Shown: positions 4,803-57,096 of the stretch, in pieces | How positions within the stretch are numbered: position 1 is the stretch's first letter | How the letters are laid out: each line of letters begins with the position of its first letter | Source: Eledone cirrhosa | Taxonomy: Eukaryota | Assembly (NCBI GenBank): GCA_964016885.1 | Contig: OZ024740.1 | Location: 193,502,001-193,566,000, forward strand | Reading direction: 5' to 3' | Length of the DNA: 64,000 nt | The notes under the pieces: generated by a model | The model's input: only the letters and a program-made list of their open reading frames with translations | Database searches by the model: none | What the model was told of the DNA's origin: nothing | Position numbers and translations under genes: made by a program

Positions 4803-6274
4803 ATATTAACAAATGGAAACTATATTTATAAAACCATTATACATATTTCAAGGGCCACCAAGGCAAACTATGGTGCGCTTTCATCAAATAAAATATAATA
4901 TAGGTTAGTTTTATAAATAAATATTGACATACCCTGAAAAAATGCAACCATTCTGGCTGGAATCTCCTGGTTTTATAAATGTAATTTCCATTTGTTAATA
5001 TATTGTATATTTACTCCAATAATTTGTTGAGTGCTTTATATCAGTTATAAAAATATTTTGCAACAAATTAAATATAACCTCTCTATATATATATATATTT
5101 AATATATATATGAGCGTGTGCGTTTGCTTGCATATGTTAACGTGCTCTCGTGCGTGTTTATATGTGTGTGTATTTGTATGTATACGCAAAAGGGACAAAC
5201 ACGATAAATAACATGCTGTGAACACTATAGATGTAGCTATTTATTAATGTTTTGTTTGACAATTTTTTGGGGAGGCATATATTACACGCACTCTCACACA
5301 CATACCCATAATATAGGTGACGCTTACTAACATTGAAACAAAAACACTAGACAAAATTCAGTCGTAGAATGACTCAGTTTAGAAGGTTTCAGGTATCTTT
5401 GACAAAACACTTTTGACACAACCAACCAAAAAATCAATATGAAATGGATTTTTTACCAGTAGCTCATTGAACTCTAACCGTTGCATGTTTTTTTTTCTTC
5501 CTTGACGAACCACACACCCTCCATAATATGACTGTATCTGTTTAACGTTACGTTACGATTTAGCATAAAAATACGTTAAAACAAGGTAATTGAAACATTA
5601 GATAAAACAGACACAGATGGTATTCCATACAATTGCACGGCACACGCGGGTGTGTGTCAGAGAGAGAGGGAGAGAGAGATGGAGAGAGAGATTGTATGTT
5701 AGAAAAAGTATATACGCATAGTAACAAAACCTCTCACAAACACATACGAATATATACACATATGGACGCTCATACATACAGGCAACCAATTACACAAAAA
5801 CACGTATATGTACAAGCTTGCGGTTATATAATGCATAATATAATAGTAGTTGAAAAAATTAATTCTAGAATAAAATCGGTTACAAACTGGGGTAATGTAT
5901 CGACCTTTCATACCAAACTCTATTATCTCTATATCTCTCTACTCATCATTCTATCTATCATTTGTACTCGATCTATCTATTTTTCCATCTCCTTAGCTAG
6001 CTTACAATTTACCTGCCAAATTATCTATCCATTTATATTGATCAATTTATGTATATTTACCAATATATCCATCATTGGACAAGAAAAACAACACTAAAGA
6101 CAACAAAGTATTAATCCAAACAGTAGTTTAAATATTGTTAGGTATGTAGATAGAGAGATAAATAAATAGAAAGAAAGAAAGATAGATAGGTAGATAGATT
6201 TTTTTTTACTATAAAACCCCGTCATATATTGACAGGTACTGTTAGAATATACATATATATATATATATATATAT

Positions 6275-6384
6275 GAACGAGTAGGACCCAAACGGCTGAG
6301 CTCAAGCCGTTTCGACGGCTAATTCTGAGTCCAGAATTAGCCGTCGAAACCGCTTGAGCTCAGCCGTCGGGGTCCTATTCGTTC
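6275..6384. repeat. Near-perfect palindrome built from the 3' half of a hammerhead (PLE pLTR fragment extends to about 6465)
   Basis: Arms of about 53 bp flank an AGTC loop (6328-6331). Each arm reads ...AGCCGTC-GAAAC-(G/C)GCTTGAGCTCAGCC-GT(C/T). Confidence 0.85.
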
Positions 6385-6461
6385 CTATTACCCACTCTAC
6401 TACCCTAAGTATTGAGTACTTTGGTGCGTTATGGTCCACCTGGTTCCTTACCACATTTCCT

Positions 6462-6532
<71 letters not shown>

Positions 6533-11617: not shown

Positions 11618-11709
11618 ATATATATATATATTATATATTGAGTTATAAACTCGAAATAGTCTTTTGCAATTAAATAGCCCAAAGAAGGGAAAATTTCCGA
11701 GCCGTGTAA

Positions 11710-12002
11710 TACAAATGAATATATGAGAGGGCTGAACACTGATACAAGTATACATGTGTTCGAATTGCAAATAACCAAGTTAGCTAGATTGAAAAATACT
11801 AATTTAAAATAATATGGTTTGCCTCTCTCGATTTAAAATAATAAATCAATAGGTTTGTTATTTTTATTGATTTATTATTTTAAGTCGAGACAGGCAAACC
11901 ATATTATTTTAAATTAGTATTTTTCAACCTAGCTAACTTGGTCATTTGCAATTCGAACACATGTATACTTGTATCAGAGTTCATCCCTCACATATATCCA
12001 TT

Positions 12003-12006
<4 letters not shown>
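11710..12006. repeat. ~300-bp imperfect palindrome (arms ~140 bp)
   Basis: TACAAATG...GATTTAAAATAATAAATCAATA / TATTGATTTATTATTTTAAGTC...CATTTGTA. A related single-arm fragment lies at 14737-14790. Confidence 0.9.
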
Positions 12007-12052
<46 letters not shown>

Positions 12053-12057
<5 letters not shown>

Positions 12058-13355
12058 GTAGAACACTGGAAGGTGACATCCGTAGTGGTAGAACACTCAG
12101 TCCAGGTGACGAGTTAGATAGAAGTGGTTACTAAACAGCTAGTTCACCATACCGAGAAAAATTGTTTCACCTTGGCGGATCCTCTGCACGTAAAGCACAT
12201 GGTTATACGGAAGAGGAAGGACAGCCGTACGAACGCGCATGCGCAGAAACGATCACTTCACACAGGCAAAACTAAATTGCCACGGGCCAGAGGTGTAAGG
12301 GAGGTAACTGCAAAAGTCCGAAAGTTTCTAGTTGATAAGAAAATTATGATGTTGTTGTAATTCAATCCGGATCTTTGTAGTTATGTAAGAGGTGTTTCAA
12401 GACGTGTGGACAACGTGTGAAGAATACACTTCTCGTGTTTAGGCAATCACTATTGCGTAATCTCTTTAGAATATTTATTCGTTCACCAATACATAGTCCA
12501 CACGACGGAGTGCCCCTTGCGTATGGCTTGGACTTAGTGATGGCTTTCCATTGAATGGAGTAGTCTATACTTGAGTCCTTGAGAGACCATACGTGGCTCG
12601 TGAGTTTTGTGGATGAACGTGCTTCCGGGTACCTAAAGGTCGACTGGTGGTTCAGGAAGCGTTCCTTAAATCGGCCCTCCGACATACCCACATAGGGTTT
12701 GACCTCCTGTGGTTTGATTTTGTCGGTTGGAAGTGACCACAGCTTCATAAACTACGGCAAGTGTGTTCATTGCTGTTGAAGGGGACAACCTTCAAGCTTA
12801 CGGCAAGAGCACTCTGGTGGGGTGTTGCTCTTAGGGCTGTTGGTGATGTGGGCCTTCAGGTTCTTAGCGCTGGAGATGAGAACGAGATAGTTTGTCTATT
12901 GTTATGCTTTCTTTTCTTATTGCTGTTATTGTTAGTGGGAGAGTAAGTAATAGGATGCGAGAAGCCGCTGTTAGCTAACGCCGTGTTACAGTAGGGTGCC
13001 GCCCTGTCAAGGATAGCCTTATTAGAGGAGAGGTTTGAGATTCTAGTACTGATATTATTTACGAAGTTTCTAAAAACAGTGGGAGGGTGGCATGTGTTCT
13101 TGTGAATGTAATTGAGTTTTTCGTTTAGCTTATGGAAGGGTCTGTGGGTGTTTGTGCGAAGGTCTAAATTAATGTCTAAGAAATGTACGCTAGAGAGGTT
13201 GGTAGCTACTGTTATCCTAAGTCCTAACTGATTGAAGGTAGAATCTAAGTCTTTTTTAAATCGGTCGAGTTCGTGACCACTTTTATGGCTCGATGAGGTC
13301 AGTCCATAGTCGCGGTATATTCCCGTGTGGAAGTCCGGGAATCTAGCACGTAATA
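12053..13355 (-). mobile_element. 5'-truncated Penelope-like element (RT C-term, GIY-YIG, pLTR with HHR remnant)
   Basis: GIYRDYGL (YRDDGL-like), VHFLDINLDL and HPP motifs. ORF 12362-12748 has YVGMSEGRFKERFLNH...CGLCIGE. HHR remnant CAGAGGATCCGCCAAGGTGAAAC at 12151-12190. Confidence 0.9.
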
Positions 13356-13391
13356 TGTATCCTTTGACAGTGCTGGCGTAGGCGACTTGAC

Positions 13392-14679
13392 CTCATATCG
13401 AATTTCGTTTATCGTGAACTCGTGCGCCGATTTTTCGATACTCGATCTTTCTAATATATTTAGCTCTGGACATAGCTATCCACCAGTTAATTTTATTGCT
13501 CATTTTTTGTCGATTCTATTGAGTGATGAATAGCTTTTGTTTTATTTTAACATGTCTATTGAGCACTCTAATTCGATATGTGTATTTCCACATTCACTCG
13601 AATTGTTTTCGCGGATATAGGGGTCATCTCCCTTGTCTAATGCCATGTGCGTTTTTCACCGCTAGTTGACTCCTCTGCCGCCAGGAAAAAACTCGTTGAT
13701 AACGTAAACTCCGTTCCACTTACTCTAGTAGGCTTTTATATTTATATGTGAGCTGATAGAGTACAGTCTAAGGATTTACAGAAACCCATGAAGCTAGATT
13801 TAACACCTTTCTAGTGGGTCCGGGTATGATTTTACATTCATTTAAATTATTGACGTATTGTTTTTATTGATATTTTTTATCTGTTTGGCCCGAATCTTCC
13901 TTTATCGATTTTAAATCGTATGGTTGATTGTAGACTTGTTCTATATGTGACGGTATTTTAACGATAGTTATAGCTCTGATTCATCTGAATTATTGAGCCC
14001 TCTGCCGCTCATATCGAATTTCGTTTATCGTGAACTCGTGCGCCGATTTTTCGATACTCGATCTTTCTAATATATTTAGCTCTGGACATAGCTATCCACC
14101 AGTTAATTTTATTGCTCATTTTTTGTCGATTCTATTGAGTGATGAATAGCTTTTGTTTTATTTTAACATGTCTATTGAGCACTCTAATTCGATATGTGTA
14201 TTTCCACATTCACTCGAATTGTTTTCGCGGATATAGGGGTCATCTCCCTTGTCTAATGCCATGTGCGTTTTTCACCGCTAGTTGACTCCTCTGCCGCCAG
14301 GAAAAAACTCGTTGATAACGTAAACTCCGTTCCACTTACTCTAGTAGGCTTTTATATTTATATGTGAGCTGATAGAGTACAGTCTAAGGATTTACAGAAA
14401 CCCATGAAGCTAGATTTAACACCTTTCTAGTGGGTCCGGGTATGATTTTACATTCATTTAAATTATTGACGTATTGTTTTTATTGATATTTTTTATCTGT
14501 TTGGCCCGAATCTTCCTTTATCGATTTTAAATCGTATGGTTGATTGTAGACTTGTTCTATATGTGACGGTATTTTAACGATAGTTATAGCTCTGATTCAT
14601 CTGAATTATTGAGCCCTCTGCCGCTCATATCGAATTTCGTTTATCGTGAACTCGTGCGCCGATTTTTCGATACTCGATC

Positions 14680-14690
<11 letters not shown>
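13392..14690. repeat. Tandem duplication, 616-bp unit, about 2.1 copies
   Basis: CTCATATCGAATTTCGTTTATCG starts at 13392, 14008 and 14624. I saw no differences between copies by eye. Confidence 0.95.
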
Positions 14691-14739
<49 letters not shown>

Positions 14740-15098
14740 GTAAACACTGATACGAGTATACATGTGTTGGTATTGCAAATGACCAAGTTATATATATATA
14801 TATATACAGAAATTCGTAATAGTTTTACATAAGCAATTTTGTTAAATCACTTCCATACGATTTAACTTATTGTCAGACAATTCAATAATTTATAAATCAT
14901 GAACTTGAAGGATGAAGATAATATACAAATTAGAAGTGTTTAGACATTATGAGATTCCCGAATCCAATTTCAAATATCACAATATTTTATTATGTATGAA
15001 TATCTGTAGATGACAACTTGTAAACGCTTTAGTTTTTTGAATGAGGCTTTTAAAAATGTAATATTAGACGATATTTTATTTCTTTATGTATCATTATT

Positions 15099-35200: not shown

Positions 35201-37972
35201 GGCTTTAGCAATAGAGCAAAATAGAGCAGAGGGAGAACTAGTTAGAAAATTAGTGAGGCGCTTAGCAAAGGCATCGCGACCGACGTGATTGCGATGAAAT
35301 TGTCCCTTGACCAATTCTTCAATGCAAAGCACGAAGGCTGCGTTGTCAGAGCTAGGGTGCGTGCTCTCAGACACGAGTGGACGAAAGCCGTTCAATGGGC
35401 CCGAGTGGCGGAGGCGCGTCGTGGCAACAAAGCCACGATCCGGTCTTTGGTGGACCACGACGGGCGCATGCTACTCGATTCCGGGCAAATGTGTGAAGCT
35501 TTTCAGCGACACTTCGCTCAGCTGTTCGGGGGCAGCGGTGGGCCGGGTTGAGGGATGGACTTTAGTGTCTACCTCAACGGACTGCCGCGGCTCTCGGCCA
35601 CTGAGGCGGAGTGTTGCGAAAAGCCGATAACAGCCGCTGAGGTCCGGGATGCAATGACTGGCTGCACAAGGTGTAAATCGCCTGGTTTGGATGGTCTGTC
35701 CTATGAACTTTACGTACAGATGCCAGACTTGTTCGGATGCCTCTTGGCGGACGTCTACTGCAACTGGCAACAGAACGGGAGAATTCCCAGCTCTGTGAGC
35801 CGAGGAGCGGTGCCACTGCTGAGAAAGGATCCGAACAAGGGGGAAAACATAGATAATTTCAGGCCCATAATTCTGCTAAACACAGAGTTAAGGATTTTGG
35901 CCAAGCTGCTAGCAAAGAGGTTGGCGCTTGTCATTGGTGGTCTGGTGGGAGAGGCGCAGACATGTGCCATTCCCGACAGATCCATCCACGACAACCTTCA
36001 CCTCACGCGATACATCGTAGAGAGGGTAGCTAGGGAACCTGGGACGGGTGGGTCCTTGATCAATTTAGATCAGTCGAAAGCTTTCGATAGATTAGACCAT
36101 CGTTACCTAGCCGCAGTCCTCAGGGCGGCTGGCTTTGGGCCTGTCTTTAGAGGCTGGATCGCTGCCATGCACAGCAACATCTGCTCTGTGGTGAGAGTGA
36201 ACGGTCACCTTTCGGAACCGTTCAACATCATGCGCTCGGTCCGCCAAGAATGTCCTCACTCGTCCCTCTTGTACGTATTGACTCTCGAGCCATTACTGTA
36301 CAAATTGGAGACGTTGAGTGGCGTCCCGCGCGAACTAGGATGCGGAAGTTCCGCGTCAGCATATGCGGACGATGTCACCGTAGTGGTGTCGAACGCCAAA
36401 CACACCGAGGCGATCGGCGCTACACTAAGAGAATACGAAACGGTGACAGGAGCAATGATCAACCAGGAAAAGTCAGTGGGCCTGCAGCTCGGCACCTGGA
36501 GAGGCAGGTCCATGCCGTCCAACAGCGTCGTCGGACGCTGGACGGACGGTCCGGTTAAATTACTAGGGGTCTGCGTCGGTCCGGACCTCCAGACGGACAA
36601 AAACTGGGACAAGGTGACGAGCAGGGTGGCTTCTCTCACCCAGAAATGGGCCGAGGGGAAGCTATCCCTGAAATGTCGAGCGGAGGTGGCTAACACGTAC
36701 ATCGCGTCTGTCATCTGCTACCGCCTGACCGTCGTACCTTGTCCTAAGCCCCGCCTGACTGCGCGGAAGCGTTTGCTTTATCGCTTTTTGTGGAAGGGAC
36801 GCGCTCCGATGGTCAGTCGGTCCATCTGCTGTCAACACCCGCTACGTGGAGGGCTAGGCATGCCGTGGCTGATGATGCGCAGACATGCGCTCAGGATACG
36901 ACATCTCCACCTCTTCCTCGACGTTGATCACGTGTGGTCGCCGTTTGCTAGACACGTATTTCCCCAGCTTGTTTCCTTGACAGAGCTGCAGTCCTGGGTC
37001 AAGCGAAGACCGAGAAGGAGCGCCTGGAGACTGAAATGTCTTCAGGCGCTCACAGCCCTCGACCAATCGGGCAATGTGATCGGTGGAAACTCCATCTCGG
37101 CGTTCTATAGAGGATTAGTGGAGGGGAAGAGCGACGACGTACTTGGGGAAAATCTAGGCGTCGACCAAAATCAACTAGCCAATCTCTTCGGAAGAACTGT
37201 CGGGCCGGGACCTATGGACAACATCCAGAAATCTCTGGCCTGGCAGTGCTACCGAGGAGCCTTGCCAGTTCGGGATAAACTCTACAGGCATGGAGGTGAG
37301 TCAACCGAGCATGTCCGAGATGCGCGCAGGGTGACGAAACCGTCCTGCACGCACTCGTCCAGTGTCAGAGCATTGCTGACTTGTGGGTTTATGTCGAACA
37401 CCTGCTGTCGCGTGTGAGACGGATCCAGCTATCAGCTGAGTCCATCGTGAGTATTGCCCCGCCTTCTTCCTTTAGCCGGGAAAGAGCAGGCAGTTCTTAT
37501 CTGTCTGGTGGCCATGGCGAAAGAGATAGTATGGTGGACACGTTTGAAAGGGCTGAAGACGAGCACTTACCTCTTCGGTGATGCCCTGACTATCTTTTTC
37601 AAATTTCATTCGAAAAGCAAAATCAGGGTAGAGAGGGAAGTGCACTCTTCCCAGCATTTTGTTGAAAGATGGGTGAGAGAAGCAAGTATGGCCCGAGTGA
37701 ATGGGCCTACTCTGAGTACGTATCTGTAAATTAAAGGTGGAAAACTGGGAGAGGGCACTTGCCTTGGCGGTCAGGGTCACTGTGGCCTTTTACTGGGCTT
37801 TCTCCACAAATGTCCCTCGGAAGTCTCCCCGCTATTGGGGAATTTTTCTTTGTTATTTTATTTCAACCTCTGTTTTTTTTACACGCAGAAATGCCCATTT
37901 GTACCGTCCTGTATTGCCCTGTACTGTCCTTAATGTCTACTTTATGTAAACCCTTGTGGTTAATAAAGAAAA

Positions 37973-42749: not shown

Positions 42750-45700
42750 GAATGCCATGGTTGACGGAGGCTCGGCTCTGTAAGGTATTGTAAATTTTGA
42801 CCGCTATAACAATTGTAAATTGTTTAAACCTTTAACCAAACTGTAGACAAAAACACCCTCCTCCTCGTGAGAGGGGTCTTTCTGCCCGTTAATTTGCCCT
42901 TCGGGGTTAAATAACCGCTTGTTGGGGGATTGTGCGCAATATCTATTTTAAACCAAAAAAAACATGGCTACGAAAAAGAACTTTCACAAGTCACTCCCAC
43001 TCATTCCGTCCTCTCCTTCCTCAATCGTCATTACAGCAGAGAGAAGATTGTCTCTCTCCCTCCCTTCTCTAAATGTGTCTCTTTCCCTCCCTTCTCTTTC
43101 GCAAGCGACGCCAGTAAAGAAAAATAGTTTACAAAATAACGTGCAAATCAAGGAACATTTCTCCACGAAGACGACAACGACGAAAAAGATGTGCGGGAAA
43201 TACGAAAACCCATCTCATTCGTCTGACGTCATGAATAATAGCAGTAGCAGCCGTAATAACAGCAGCAGCAGCAACAGTGACAAGGAAAACAACAGTAGCA
43301 GCCGCAACAGCATCAGCAGCAGCATAAACAACAACAGCATTAGCAGCAGCAGCAACAACAACAACAACCACAGCAACAGCGGCGGCGGCAGTAGTGGTAG
43401 TACCTGCAGCAACAACAAAAGTAACAGCAGCTCTGACGACGACAACAACAACAGCAGCAAAGAAAAACCAATCTCGTTTGCAGGTATCGCAAAGAACCTG
43501 GAAACGATCCTCATAACAAATGAGGAATTAGAGGAAGCGAAGAAGATGGTGTCGAAAACCGGACACCGAGCAATCTGCAAGGCAGCCGAAAAATGTTTCG
43601 AAACCCAACAGCACTGTACTGTCACGTACCGTACAGTAAGCACAAAATCCCGTAGGGTTGAAAGAGCCACAGAGGCTCAAATACAAAAAGCCTTATGGTC
43701 TGTGTGGCAGCGGAAAACGCATATCACCCAAGGCAAGAAATATGCCACCGTAGACGTGCTTTTTGCCACACCCCAGGAGGCAAAGGCTCAATATTTAGTG
43801 ACCCTAAAGAGCGAGGAAAATGTCGTAAGAAGGCGCAAACGCAGAAGCAACGCATCGTCGCCTTCGAAAAGGGAGGAAAGAAATGAAAAAAGGGTAAAGG
43901 CTAGTGCAAAGAGACTCACAGCAGCAACACCACCAACACTATCATCACCCACACTAGCACCATCATCACCACCGGCGACAACGCCACCGCCAACAACAAC
44001 AACGCCTTCAATACCACCACCACAAGCACCAACATCGCAAACACAACAAAACACACACACCCGGAAACAACGACAAGAAAATAGCAGAACCACACCCCAC
44101 CCCCAGAAAAACAAATGCACGGCAATGAATACACACAACAAGAAACTAATGACTTACATAATTGAACACACAGACATTTCACAGCACGACTACATAATAC
44201 CAGCACCAATAAAAACGCCAACGTACATAAGACTGGTAAATATAGCACAGAAACAATACACAAACATTAAAACGAAATTCCCCAACGCAGTTGGTGATTT
44301 CAGAGACCTAGGAGGGACTCTCAACCGGAGAGTATATTCGGACATACTCATAGAAGAGCCGACGACAAGCCGAAGGGAAGATTCAACGGTCCCTTCGCCA
44401 GACGATCAAGTGAAAAGAGATGGAGAAACCATCATTCCTCTATGAAAAGTACGGTAAGTGGTCTTTCCCATCTTTTCCACTCCATTTTAAAAATGACCTC
44501 ACACAGAATAGGCAGCATAAATGCGCGTGGCTTGGGGTCGTCATGGAAGCAGGGTCACCTCCACAACGACCTCAGGTCACTAAACATAGATGTAGTGGCC
44601 ATCAGCGAGACCAGAATCTCCGAAGCACGGGCCTTCACACCGATCTTCGGCTGCTACGATGTGTACGCATCTCCCAGCCGTCCAGGATCGGGGGGAGGAT
44701 TAGCTGTGCTTTTTCGGAGAGGTTTGGATCTCGCCATACGGGCTATCTTCCTGGACCCAGAGGGTAAGTTGGTGGTTCTGGACGTGACCAGCGGAGACGG
44801 GCAAGCTATCAGACTAGTGGCCGTCTATGCTCCGACAGGAGCAGGGCGGCCTGATTTCTTCCGGCGTCTGGAGAACTTTCTTGGAACGTCCCGCTCTTTA
44901 GTGTTAGTGGGTGACTGGAACGGGATCTTAGATGCACGCTTGGACTGTGTGGGATTAGCGGATAGGGGTGGAAGGTGCAAGAGCCTCACCAACCTGCTCA
45001 GGCGTTTTGAACTGTCTGATAGGTACCGATTGGATTTCCCGAATGTGCTAATGTGGACTTGGACAAATCGCATTGGGTCATCCAGATCATATCTAGATAG
45101 AGCATTTTGTAGGGAAATAGATAGCTCTAGCATAGGCTGTCCACAATTCAAGATAGTCAGCTACACGGACCACAAATTCGTGATCTGTGTGCTTGACTTA
45201 GATAGGCTTCACAGACGAGGACCCGGCTACTGGAAGCTAAACGCGTCCTTACCAGCGCGCAAGGCCTACAGACACCGGATTAGCGAACTAGTTAAGCGGG
45301 CGTTGACGGGGGGGCCATCGTTAACAACAAGTGGTGGTTTGCTCCGAAAAGAGCGATTAGAATAGAATCCATTAGGTTTAGTAAGGCTTTAACAATAGAG
45401 AAAAATAGAGCAGAGGGAGAACTATTTAGAAAATTAGAAGAGGCGCTTAGCAAAGGCATCGCGACTGACGTGCTTGCGGCGAAATTGGCCCTGGACCAAT
45501 TCTTTAATGCAAAGCACGAAGGTTGCGTTGTCAGATCTAGGGTGCGTACCCTCAGACACGAGGGGACGAAAGCCGTTCAATGGGCCCGAGTGGCGGAGGC
45601 GCGTCGTGGAAACCAAGCCACGATCTGGTCTTTGGTGGACCACGACTGGCGCATGCTACTCGATTCCAGGCAAATGTGTGAAGCTTTTCAGCGACACTTC

Positions 45701-56687: not shown

Positions 56688-56766
<79 letters not shown>

Positions 56767-56795
56767 TCTCTCTGTATATATATATATATATATAA

Positions 56796-56968
56796 TAGTA
56801 GAACACTCGAGGGTTATATCCATAGTAGTAGAGCACTCAGTCCATAGGACGAGTTTGGTAGAAGTAATTCCACAAGAGTTAGTTCACCAGACAGAGCTGA
56901 AGATCCGCATAAAGCGAAACATTTGTTCTTTGAATTGTGAACTAATTGTTGTAGAACTACTGCTACTT
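56796..56968 (+). mobile_element. Hammerhead-centred hairpin mini-element from the pLTR family of the 12.0-13.4 kb PLE
   Basis: HHR CAGAG-CTGAAGA-TCCGCATAAAGC-GAAACATTTGT-T-CTTTG at 56892-56932. Arms 56857-56896 and 56928-56967 are imperfect reverse complements. 56796-56896 matches 12053-12156. Confidence 0.75.
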
Positions 56969-56974
56969 ATATAT

Positions 56975-57096
<122 letters not shown>

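What the first reader, a model, noticed from the sequence alone, without database searches (positions are those of the whole stretch)
56796..56968. Complete hammerhead whose stem I is extended into a ~40-bp hairpin
Seen: an HHR core (56897-56927) is flanked by imperfect inverted arms. The left arm (56796-56896) is homologous to 12053-12156, which in the full PLE lies 3' of the HHR on the opposite strand. So sequence normally downstream of the ribozyme has been copied in inverted form upstream of it, pivoting on stem I. This is a second case, from a different family, of the fold-back pattern at 6275, and here the catalytic core is retained. Inference: it could be a ~170-nt non-autonomous ribozyme-bearing element (retrozyme-like) embedded in TA repeats.
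Basis: partly seen in the sequence, partly recalled or inferred. Interest (0 to 1): 0.75.

Follow-up and report, generated by a model that had tools for sequence, protein, structure and literature searches.

The report
Penelope retrotransposon stub with hammerhead
This 173-base hairpin is a short stub left by a Penelope-like jumping gene in a TA repeat, likely made when both cut DNA ends copied the same piece of the element's RNA; it is one of thousands of such stubs, not a new ribozyme element.

Summary
An inverted 101-nt arm (56796-56896), a hammerhead-like core (56897-56927) and a 41-nt arm (56928-56968) lie between microsatellites. The left arm is homologous to 12053-12156, the 3' end of a minus-strand Penelope-like element (PLE). 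The long stem I is not native to that element.

It is not a retrozyme-like mini-family with a fixed junction:
- The window's junction 22-mer occurs exactly twice in the 3.0-Gb genome.
- The un-rearranged 22-mer across the hammerhead cut site occurs 7478 times.
- The 30 best genomic matches show 20 or more different pivots.

In 90 tail-bearing copies taken in positional order, 44 are fold-back stubs of 130-331 nt. Of the 76 short copies, 75 end within -72..+47 of the cut site. Head-to-head pairs combine one long end (+104, with a 62-nt tail) and one short end (+42) in 25 of 26 cases.

This is the published PLE insertion signature: an inverted 5'-truncated copy, a one-sided tail, a (TA)n target and two reverse-transcription start sites.

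Rfam does not call the core a hammerhead, and this copy's helix II is mutated.

Earlier notes of this scan reached the same reading on other DNA of this genome.

Verdict: an ordinary, decayed PLE stub.

The parts
56693..56795 (.). Left target microsatellite: (CT)n followed by a short (TA)n
   Evidence: Sequence read. Of 90 sampled relatives, 51 have TA and 18 have GA in the 14 nt beside the tail.
56796..56857 (-). The 'tail': reverse complement of positions +43..+104 after the hammerhead cut site of the PLE, i.e. the long 3' end
   Evidence: Aligns to 12053-12117. Matches family reference +99..+1 over 56798-56896 at 86%. The tail is present at only one end of head-to-head pairs.
56858..56889 (-). 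Inverted 5'-truncated copy, about +42..+8, continuing from the tail
   Evidence: Forms the 5' half of the long hairpin.
56890..56896 (+). Start of the sense copy (about -37..-31): native 5' strand of hammerhead stem I (GACAGAG; family consensus GACCGAG)
   Evidence: Relatives L012, L014, L015 and L017 show the native upstream ...CAGACCGAG before CTGANGA. BLAST places reference -32..+42 at 56894-56969.
56897..56927 (+). Hammerhead-like core: CUGAAGA (56897-56903), degraded helix II and loop (56904-56915), GAAA (56916-56919), short helix III C-AUUU-G (56920-56925), then U16.1 and U17 (56926-56927). The predicted cut lies between 56927 and 56928.
   Evidence: Sequence read. No Rfam hammerhead hit. 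Relative L004 scores 17.2 bits against a gathering score of 34. It fits the cuganga N7-17 gaaa descriptor used for PLEs in PMC8557442.
56928..56968 (+). Sense copy +1..+42, ending at the short 3' end of the PLE
   Evidence: The same end ...CTTCTA|(TA)n closes 27 of 44 sampled stubs and the short-form long copies.
56969..57093 (.). Right target microsatellite, mostly (TA)n
12053..13392 (-). 5'-truncated long copy of a related subfamily of the same PLE. It has a tail and +42..+1 (12053-12156), a hammerhead remnant with U4 changed to A (about 12157-12195), a GIY-YIG-type endonuclease ORF fragment (12362-12751) and a reverse-transcriptase fragment with YRDYGL (12856-13392). It abuts (TA)n at 12006-12052.
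   Evidence: 91% over reference -659..+104. [quoted passage not shown]

Best explanation
Window 56796-56968 is a minimal head-to-head insertion of the 3' end of a Penelope-like retrotransposon (PLE) in a TA/CT microsatellite. It was likely made in one event in which both cut target strands primed reverse transcription of the same RNA from two different start sites.

Shown:
- The left 94 nt are an inverted copy of the element's last 104..8 nt, including a 62-nt tail.
- The right 79 nt are a sense copy from about 37 nt before the hammerhead cut site to position +42, the element's alternative short end.
- The two copies meet head to head beside hammerhead stem I.

Inferred:
- One cDNA started at +104 and the other at +42.
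- Both stopped within or just past the hammerhead region.
- Their 3' ends were joined at a 2-nt microhomology and filled in.
- As a result the 6-bp stem I appears extended into a ~40-bp hairpin.

The stub has no coding capacity and is old: its arms match at 30 of 41 positions and it is at most 89% identical to any relative. Its hammerhead-like core is mutated, so it is most likely inert. If it were transcribed it would form a hairpin RNA.
For: 1. The parent is a PLE.
- The arm sequence is the 3' end of a minus-strand element with reverse-transcriptase and endonuclease ORF fragments.
- The Atlas neighbours carry GIY-YIG, RVT_1 and HTH_animal.

2. There are two fixed 3' ends. Long copies end either at +42 or at +104 beside (TA)n.

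3. Long and short ends are paired.
- 11 of 11 resolvable head-to-head pairs are long plus short.
- 14 of 15 pairs chosen without regard to their ends are long plus short. One is long plus long and none is short plus short.
- If ends were chosen independently, at most half of the pairs would be mixed. At least 14 of 15 then has P about 5e-4 (my arithmetic).

4. Stubs are the commonest product.
- Of 90 tail-bearing copies taken in positional order, 44 are fold-back stubs, 29 are solo short copies, 3 are fold-backs with a long partner and 14 are long.
- 75 of 76 non-long inner ends lie within -72..+47.

5. The junctions are independent.
- There are 20 or more different pivots among the 30 best matches.
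- Exact junction 22-mers number 2 (window type) and 8 (stem-I type), against 7478 for the colinear sequence.

6. Each stub is one event. The two arms of a stub share subfamily variants; 0 of 10000 permutations reach the observed arm identity (using 19 of 44 stubs).

7. Published biology matches.
- Inverted 5'-truncated copies, a one-sided tail and a (TA)n target bias are described in PMC8557442 (passages).
- A purified PLE protein cleaves and extends both strands and starts reverse transcription at two adjacent internal sites. The tail is the stretch between them (PMC11167929, main text).
Against: - Pfam gave no hit on the window's two ORF fragments or on a 388-aa ORF of a relative, and PDB sequence search gave none. 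The PLE assignment therefore rests on homologues and motifs.
- Clade placement (Hydra) was not tested by a tree.
- 4 of the 30 best matches (L001, L002, L005, L008) share the window's junction, so small-scale copying of a stub is not excluded.
- No well-preserved long copy of the window's own subfamily was seen. Only the diverged L150 was found.
- The cause of the stop zone near the hammerhead is unknown.
- In vitro, the two start sites were used on both strands without preference (PMC11167929), so the strict long-plus-short pairing is not yet explained by experiment.
- The sample of 90 covers only the first 81 Mb of one contig and requires an exact 20-mer in the tail.
- Coordinates come from alignment to one subfamily's reference and are good to a few nt.
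Confidence: 0.85

Rival explanations
1. A non-autonomous, retrozyme-like or SINE-like mini-element of about 170 nt that is transcribed and copied as a unit by the PLE enzyme. The hammerhead would process its RNA.
For: - The own-genome search found 2477 first-look candidates. All 40 scored forward matches cover most of the 173 nt at 80-100% identity.
- 4 of the 30 best matches share the window's junction.
- The window's subfamily has few long copies in my sample.
- A 2026 preprint argues that animal retrozymes derive from PLE pLTRs (abstract only).
Against: - The window-type junction 22-mer occurs exactly twice, against 7478 for the colinear sequence.
- Pivots differ in most copies, including within the window's subfamily.
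- The copies are solitary, not tandem, whereas retrozymes are defined as tandem repeats with canonical type I hammerheads expressed as circRNAs (PMC7229834, passages).
- The motif is below the Rfam threshold.
Confidence: 0.07
2. A DNA-level rearrangement after insertion. One possibility is central deletion of a longer head-to-head PLE insertion, because long palindromes are unstable. Another is a replication fold-back at the microsatellite.
For: - Junctions show small overlaps or fillers (-10 to +7 nt in 41 of 44 stubs). End joining would produce the same pattern.
- Long palindromes are known to be unstable (general knowledge, recalled).
Against: - The 29 solo short copies have no partner, yet 28 of them end within the same zone (-62..+47; one ends at -87) and join the microsatellite directly. 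Palindrome revision cannot explain that.
- Arm lengths are bimodal rather than graded: 75 inner ends lie within -72..+47, 5 between -87 and -194, and 9 beyond -266.
Confidence: 0.06
3. A host-exploited hairpin RNA locus (small-RNA precursor) or a functional self-cleaving hammerhead with an extended stem I.
For: - The element folds as a long hairpin.
- Sub-threshold miRNA-model matches simply reflect the hairpin shape.
Against: - The arms have decayed to 30 of 41 matches, and the helix II positions are mutated.
- No conservation beyond neutral repeat decay was seen.
- No Rfam family reaches its gathering score.
Confidence: 0.02

Closest known systems
Insertion units of endonuclease-positive Penelope-like elements (Craig et al. 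2021, PMC8557442, passages read; Frangieh et al. 2024, PMC11167929, main text read)
   Same: An inverted 5'-truncated copy abuts a sense copy. A tail extension is present at one end only. The target is a (TA)n microsatellite. A hammerhead core motif lies near the 3' end or pLTR. There are two alternative reverse-transcription start points.
   Different: - Here both copies are cut down to about 80-95 nt, so the whole insertion is 173 nt and the hammerhead motif sits at the pivot.
- The tail is 62 nt, not 30-40.
- Long and short ends are paired almost without exception (25 of 26 pairs). The papers I read do not state this.
Hydra clade of C-terminal-endonuclease PLEs (Craig et al. 2021, section read in passages)
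   Same: Short elements with one ORF (homologues are about 670 aa), a C-terminal GIY-YIG, insertion into (TA)n, a cuganga...gaaa core, and presence in molluscs.
   Different: Clade membership was not tested here by phylogeny. The name comes from the paper and from earlier notes of this scan.
Metazoan non-LTR retrozymes (Cervera and de la Pena 2020, PMC7229834, passages; Li et al. 2026 preprint, abstract)
   Same: Similar size range (170-400 nt), a type I hammerhead-like motif, a highly self-paired RNA, and a proposed PLE origin.
   Different: Retrozymes are direct tandem repeats with canonical hammerheads and are expressed as circRNAs. This is a solitary inverted pair with a sub-threshold motif and variable junctions.
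[quoted passage not shown]
   Same: - Type I layout, a short helix I and a very short helix III.
- In the younger subfamilies helix III is palindromic (ACAAUUGU).
- Located in the PLE terminal region.
- Expected low activity as a monomer.
   Different: - Helix II is only 2 bp above a U-U mismatch, not 6-8 bp.
- There is no G10.1-C11.1 pair.
- In the window's subfamily the loop is AUUU, which is not palindromic.
Twin priming inversions of LINE-1 (Ostertag and Kazazian 2001; recalled, not read here)
   Same: Both strands of the cut target prime cDNA synthesis on one RNA, giving an inverted 5' part.
   Different: In L1 the second primer anneals internally at variable sites. Here both starts are fixed, at +104 and +42.

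Membership tests
Penelope-like element insertion unit | Sequence derives from an element encoding a reverse transcriptase plus a GIY-YIG endonuclease | tested here: met
   The arm is homologous to the 3' end of the copy at 12053-13392. ORF homologues carry YRDDGL and a Pfam GIY-YIG domain at 30.9 and 25.9 bits. Pfam is silent on the window's own decayed ORFs.
Penelope-like element insertion unit | An inverted 5'-truncated copy adjacent to a sense copy | tested here: met
   The same arrangement occurs in 47 of 90 sampled copies.
Penelope-like element insertion unit | A tail extension at only one end of the insertion | tested here: met
   The window has the tail on the left only. 25 of 26 head-to-head pairs have one long and one short end.
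Penelope-like element insertion unit | Microsatellite, especially (TA)n, as target | tested here: met
Hydra clade of PLEs | Reverse transcriptase and endonuclease group with Hydra families in a phylogeny; the endonuclease lacks the CCHH motif | not tested
   No reference Hydra sequences were available, so no tree was built. Only indirect traits fit: ORF length, (TA)n target and the hammerhead core.
Hammerhead ribozyme, type I (Rfam RF00163) | Conserved core CUGANGA ... GAAA ... U-H in type I order | tested here: met
   56897-56927 read directly. The same holds in relatives.
Hammerhead ribozyme, type I (Rfam RF00163) | Score at or above the family's gathering score (34 bits) | tested here: not met
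   No hit for the window copy at E<=10. L004 scores 17.2 bits, E 0.13. No hit for L058 or L082.
Hammerhead ribozyme, type I (Rfam RF00163) | A stable helix II closed by a 10.1-11.1 pair | tested here: not met
   The family consensus UCC-loop-GGU gives U-U plus two C-G pairs. The window copy reads UCC...AGC.
Hammerhead ribozyme, type I (Rfam RF00163) | Self-cleavage | not testable with these tools
   Needs a transcription and cleavage assay.
Non-LTR retrozyme | Direct tandem repeats of the hammerhead-bearing monomer | tested here: not met
   There is a single unit in the window. All 30 best relatives are solitary.
Non-LTR retrozyme | Many copies of one unit with the same boundaries and junction | tested here: not met
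   Outer ends are shared, but the inner junction is not: 2 exact copies of the window junction against 7478 colinear.
Non-LTR retrozyme | Expression as circular RNA | not testable with these tools

The most novel reading that the evidence does not exclude
The stubs are the default product of this enzyme, not random abortive copies. A dimeric PLE reverse transcriptase/endonuclease would copy one RNA from two fixed start sites (+104 and +42), one per cut DNA strand. It would usually halt at a boundary formed by the hammerhead region, in the manner of a telomerase template boundary. Hammerhead stem I and the GGATCC palindrome would then supply the microhomology that joins the two cDNAs. The hammerhead fold would thus set the length and pivot of most insertions.
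Probability: 0.2. Interest if true: 0.55.

Novelty: new member of a known kind. Interest (0 to 1): 0.3.

Why it matters
For annotation, thousands of TA-embedded hairpins with a hammerhead-like loop in this genome should be labelled as truncated PLE insertions. They are not ribozyme genes, miRNA-like hairpins or a new class of element.

For mechanism, two regularities seen here are in-vivo constraints on how PLEs integrate. Long and short ends are paired almost without exception, and stops cluster within about 120 nt around the hammerhead. PLE integration has only one in-vitro study that I could read (PMC11167929). The window's own copy adds nothing beyond being one clear, old example.

Tried and rejected
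- Rfam over the whole window at gathering score gave no family. Around the element at E<=10 it gave only microsatellite and hairpin look-alikes of miRNA models.
- Rfam on 20 relatives' loci gave no hammerhead at the stub cores among the 150 rows shown; 99 lower rows were not shown. It gave one unrelated Hammerhead_1 hit, L004:1299-1343, at 31.7 bits. That hit belongs to another fold-back family.
- Targeted Rfam runs: 17.2 bits on L004, nothing on L058 (whose CUGA is mutated), nothing on L082.
- Pfam on the window ORFs and on the L154 ORF, and PDB by sequence, gave nothing.
- I considered that hammerhead self-cleavage defines the template's 5' end. I rejected it as the main cause because only about 8 of 76 inner ends lie at +4..-6.
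- I considered a single snap-back cDNA. It predicts equal arms, but only L022 shows equal arms.
- I did not follow up the 'twin hairpin beyond each end' lead from earlier notes. I saw one hairpin at about +48..+65 but no sequence beyond +104.

Full report
**What is at the site**

The sequence reads, left to right:
- (CT)n then a short (TA)n;
- a 101-nt left arm (56796-56896);
- CTGAAGA-TCCGCATAAAGC-GAAA-C-ATTT-GTT (56897-56927);
- a 41-nt right arm (56928-56968);
- about 125 nt of (TA)n.

The left arm aligns with 12053-12156 at 80 of 104 columns. The segment 56890-56968 aligns with the reverse complement of 12114-12205. A BLAST of a family reference against the whole window finds only these two loci. 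It parses the stub as reference +99..+1 (antisense, 56798-56896) followed by -32..+42 (sense, 56894-56969). The inner left arm pairs with the right arm at 30 of 41 positions. The RNA folds as one long hairpin at -46.9 kcal/mol, z = -3.1; the other strand folds likewise.

**The parent element**

At 12053-13392 the minus strand carries two ORF fragments. One contains ...GIYRDYGL... and one contains ...YVGMSEGRFKERFLNH.... The copy ends at 12053 against a (TA)n tract.

- Pfam is silent on these decayed fragments and on a 388-aa ORF from a better copy, L154. PDB sequence search is silent too.
- The 388-aa ORF has 98 homologues at E<=1e-5, up to 672 aa long.
- Two of six homologues scanned have a C-terminal Pfam GIY-YIG domain, at 30.9 and 25.9 bits.
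- P0006 (671 aa) shows YRDDGL and VIY...YIGLTE...R..NH, preceded by a cysteine-rich linker.
- The Atlas neighbours carry GIY-YIG, RVT_1 and HTH_animal on some members.

A reverse transcriptase with a C-terminal GIY-YIG endonuclease is the Penelope-like element (PLE) architecture. An ORF of about 670 aa, (TA)n targets and a cuganga...gaaa core fit the Hydra clade of Craig et al. 2021 (passages). I did not test clade membership by a tree.

**Copies in the genome**

The 173-nt query has 2477 first-look candidates in the 3.0-Gb genome. All 40 scored forward matches cover most of it at 80-100% identity. Each of the 30 fetched copies is solitary and mostly lies in TA-rich microsatellite.

The centre differs from copy to copy:
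- Four, including the window (L001, L002, L005, L008), read ...CACCAGACCGAG|CTGA....
- About five read ...CACCATACCGAG|CTGA....
- The others each have their own pivot.
- Several have the left arm running into the core, so that the CUGANGA box is lost (L009, L019/L024, L028-L030).
- Several have more native upstream sequence retained (L012, L014, L015, L017).

- window-type junction: 2;
- stem-I junction: 8;
- colinear sequence across the cut site: 7478;
- reversed-pattern controls: 0.

**Two 3' ends**

Long copies of the family have 3246 first-look candidates; the 40 scored are 92-94% identical to 12160-12760. They end in one of two ways:
- 42 nt after the predicted cut site (...CCACTTCTA|(TA)n);
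- 104 nt after it, with a further 62-nt tail.

In the 11 resolvable head-to-head pairs, one copy is long and the other is short. I then took 15 head-to-head pairs from the positional list, chosen only because both arms keep the cut-site 22-mer. Of 17 pairs seen, one tail-to-tail pair and one duplicate locus were left out. Fourteen are long plus short. One is long plus long, with a microsatellite between the copies. None is short plus short. If ends were chosen independently, at most half the pairs would be mixed; at least 14 of 15 then has P about 5e-4 (my arithmetic).

**An unbiased sample**

A 20-mer in the tail has 4210 exact hits and 0 control hits. I analysed the first 90 by position on contig C1, using the loci, with a two-piece alignment to a reference taken unaltered from L058.

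- 14 are long: the tail-bearing copy runs more than 100 nt upstream of the cut site.
- 44 are fold-back stubs of 130-331 nt.
- 3 are fold-backs with a long partner.
- 29 are short copies without a partner.
- L082 and L083 are a duplicated locus.

Of the 76 non-long copies, 75 have their inner end within -72..+47. Only 5 of the 90 end between -87 and -194, and 9 run beyond -266. The stop distribution is therefore bimodal, with a hot zone around the hammerhead motif.

In the stubs:
- The partner ends at +42 in 27 of 44 and at +37, joined to (CT)n, in 6 of 44.
- Overlaps or fillers at the pivot are -10 to +7 nt in 41 of 44.
- The descriptor CTGANGA-N7-17-GAAA survives in 31 of 44.

The two arms of a stub share subfamily variants. 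The mean arm identity is 0.864 within stubs against 0.831 between stubs, and 0 of 10000 permutations reach the observed value. That test used the 19 of 44 stubs in which both arms span +1..+42. The two arms therefore come from one event and not from two neighbouring insertions.

**Fit to published biology**

Craig et al. 2021 (passages) describe PLE insertions as highly 5'-truncated. They often have an inverted 5'-truncated copy adjacent and a 30-40-bp tail at only one end, and they show a (TA)n bias.

Frangieh et al. 2024 (main text) worked with a purified PLE protein. They report that:
- the protein cleaves and extends both target strands;
- reverse transcription starts at two adjacent internal sites of the RNA;
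- the tail is the stretch between those sites;
- hammerhead mutants do not change insertion in vitro, and cleavage is protein-assisted.

The window's element is this structure at its minimum: a tail-bearing inverted copy (+104..+8) and a sense copy (-37..+42).

The long stem I is a by-product. In long copies the sequence upstream of the core is not complementary to +1..+42 (23 of 47 gapped columns), and the native stem I is 4-6 bp.

**The hammerhead**

All conserved core nucleotides are present, in type I order. In the two younger subfamilies helix III is the palindrome ACAAUUGU. That matches the palindromic short helix III described for PLE hammerheads (Cervera and de la Pena 2014, passages).

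Helix II, however, is only two C-G pairs above a U-U mismatch. That paper reports 6-8 bp and a conserved G10.1-C11.1 pair. A U-U mismatch at the base of helix II is mentioned for one axolotl retrozyme hammerhead (PMC7229834).

Rfam's type I model gives 17.2 bits (gathering score 34, E 0.13) for the well-preserved stub L004. It gives nothing for the window copy, L058 or L082. I therefore call it a hammerhead-like core of the PLE kind, with catalysis untested. The window copy carries two substitutions in helix II and mismatches in stem I.

**Mechanism and its limits**

Shown: the anatomy, the two fixed ends, their pairing, the variable pivots, the stop zone, and the single-event origin of both arms.

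Inferred: two cDNAs, one primed on each strand of the cut microsatellite, start at +104 and +42 on the same RNA. They stop near the hammerhead and are joined head to head by short microhomology. In the window that microhomology is a CA dinucleotide between +8 and -37.

Why synthesis usually stops there is open. Candidates are a short template RNA, a structural or protein-bound boundary, or low processivity. Self-cleavage at the cut site is not the main cause, because only about 8 of 76 inner ends lie at +4..-6. Secondary deletion of long palindromes does not explain the 29 partner-less short copies, 28 of which stop within -62..+47 (one at -87).

**Limits of the evidence**
- The sample of 90 covers the first 81 Mb of one contig.
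- It requires an exact tail 20-mer, so tail-less and decayed insertions are missed.
- Coordinates rest on one subfamily's reference.
- Four same-junction copies leave room for rare copying of a stub.
- Supplementary files of the papers were not consulted.

**Earlier notes of this scan**

After I had formed this reading, a look-up showed that other agents had described the same class on other DNA of this genome. They described stub insertions of Hydra-clade PLEs, priming from both ends, and one long plus one short end. My counts agree with them independently.

**Verdict**

The retrozyme-like interpretation is not supported. The feature is an old, inert example of a known kind of retrotransposon insertion.

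Noticed in passing
window 6270-6470: Another TA-flanked fold-back from a different family...GACCCAAACGGCTGAGCTCAAGCCGTTTCGACGGC... and its inverse, followed by a one-sided tail (TATTACCCACTCTACTACCC...CCTTACCACA). Copies of the same family lie in the flanks of L004, L037 and L042. One of them (L004:1299-1343, minus strand) scores 31.7 bits on Rfam Hammerhead_1, just under the gathering score of 34.
   Followed up: partly
window 11709-12007 and about 14606-14846: A 143-nt-armed palindrome, 94% complementary with a 13-nt spacer, lies directly beside the (TA)n that receives the PLE 3' end at 12053 (I5). A related sequence recurs near 14650-14800, where the ORF translations are similar. It is probably another fold-back stub family.
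   Followed up: no
window 13392-13691 and 14008-14307: Two 300-nt stretches are 100% identical and 616 nt apart, at the 5' edge of the truncated PLE copy (D13). This is either a recent tandem duplication or an assembly artefact.
   Followed up: no
window 26600-46700: Three large diverged direct repeats of about 6-10 kb with long open frames (for example 35552-37417 and 42952-44445, plus strand, and D8-D19). They are unrelated to the finding and were not identified.
   Followed up: no
L164 (G000:C1:43470748-43471420) and L171 (G000:C1:50033482-50034079): Long ends with internal deletions between the repeated ...ACCACT... modules of the 3' region (+35 joined to about +72 in L164). The three similar modules at about +28..+42, +62..+75 and +91..+104 look like a triplicated start-site motif, but no insertion ending at the middle module was seen.
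   Followed up: partly
L082 and L083 (G000:C1:35.17 Mb and 36.10 Mb): Identical stub with identical flanks at two places 0.93 Mb apart. This is a segmental duplication or an assembly duplicate, not two insertions.
   Followed up: no
tail, window 56835-56854 (sense positions about +48..+65): A small hairpin (CUCGUCC-CAU-GGACUGAG) lies a few bases beyond the short end at +42. Earlier notes of this scan propose such hairpins as start-site signals. No covariation was available within this family to test it.
   Followed up: no
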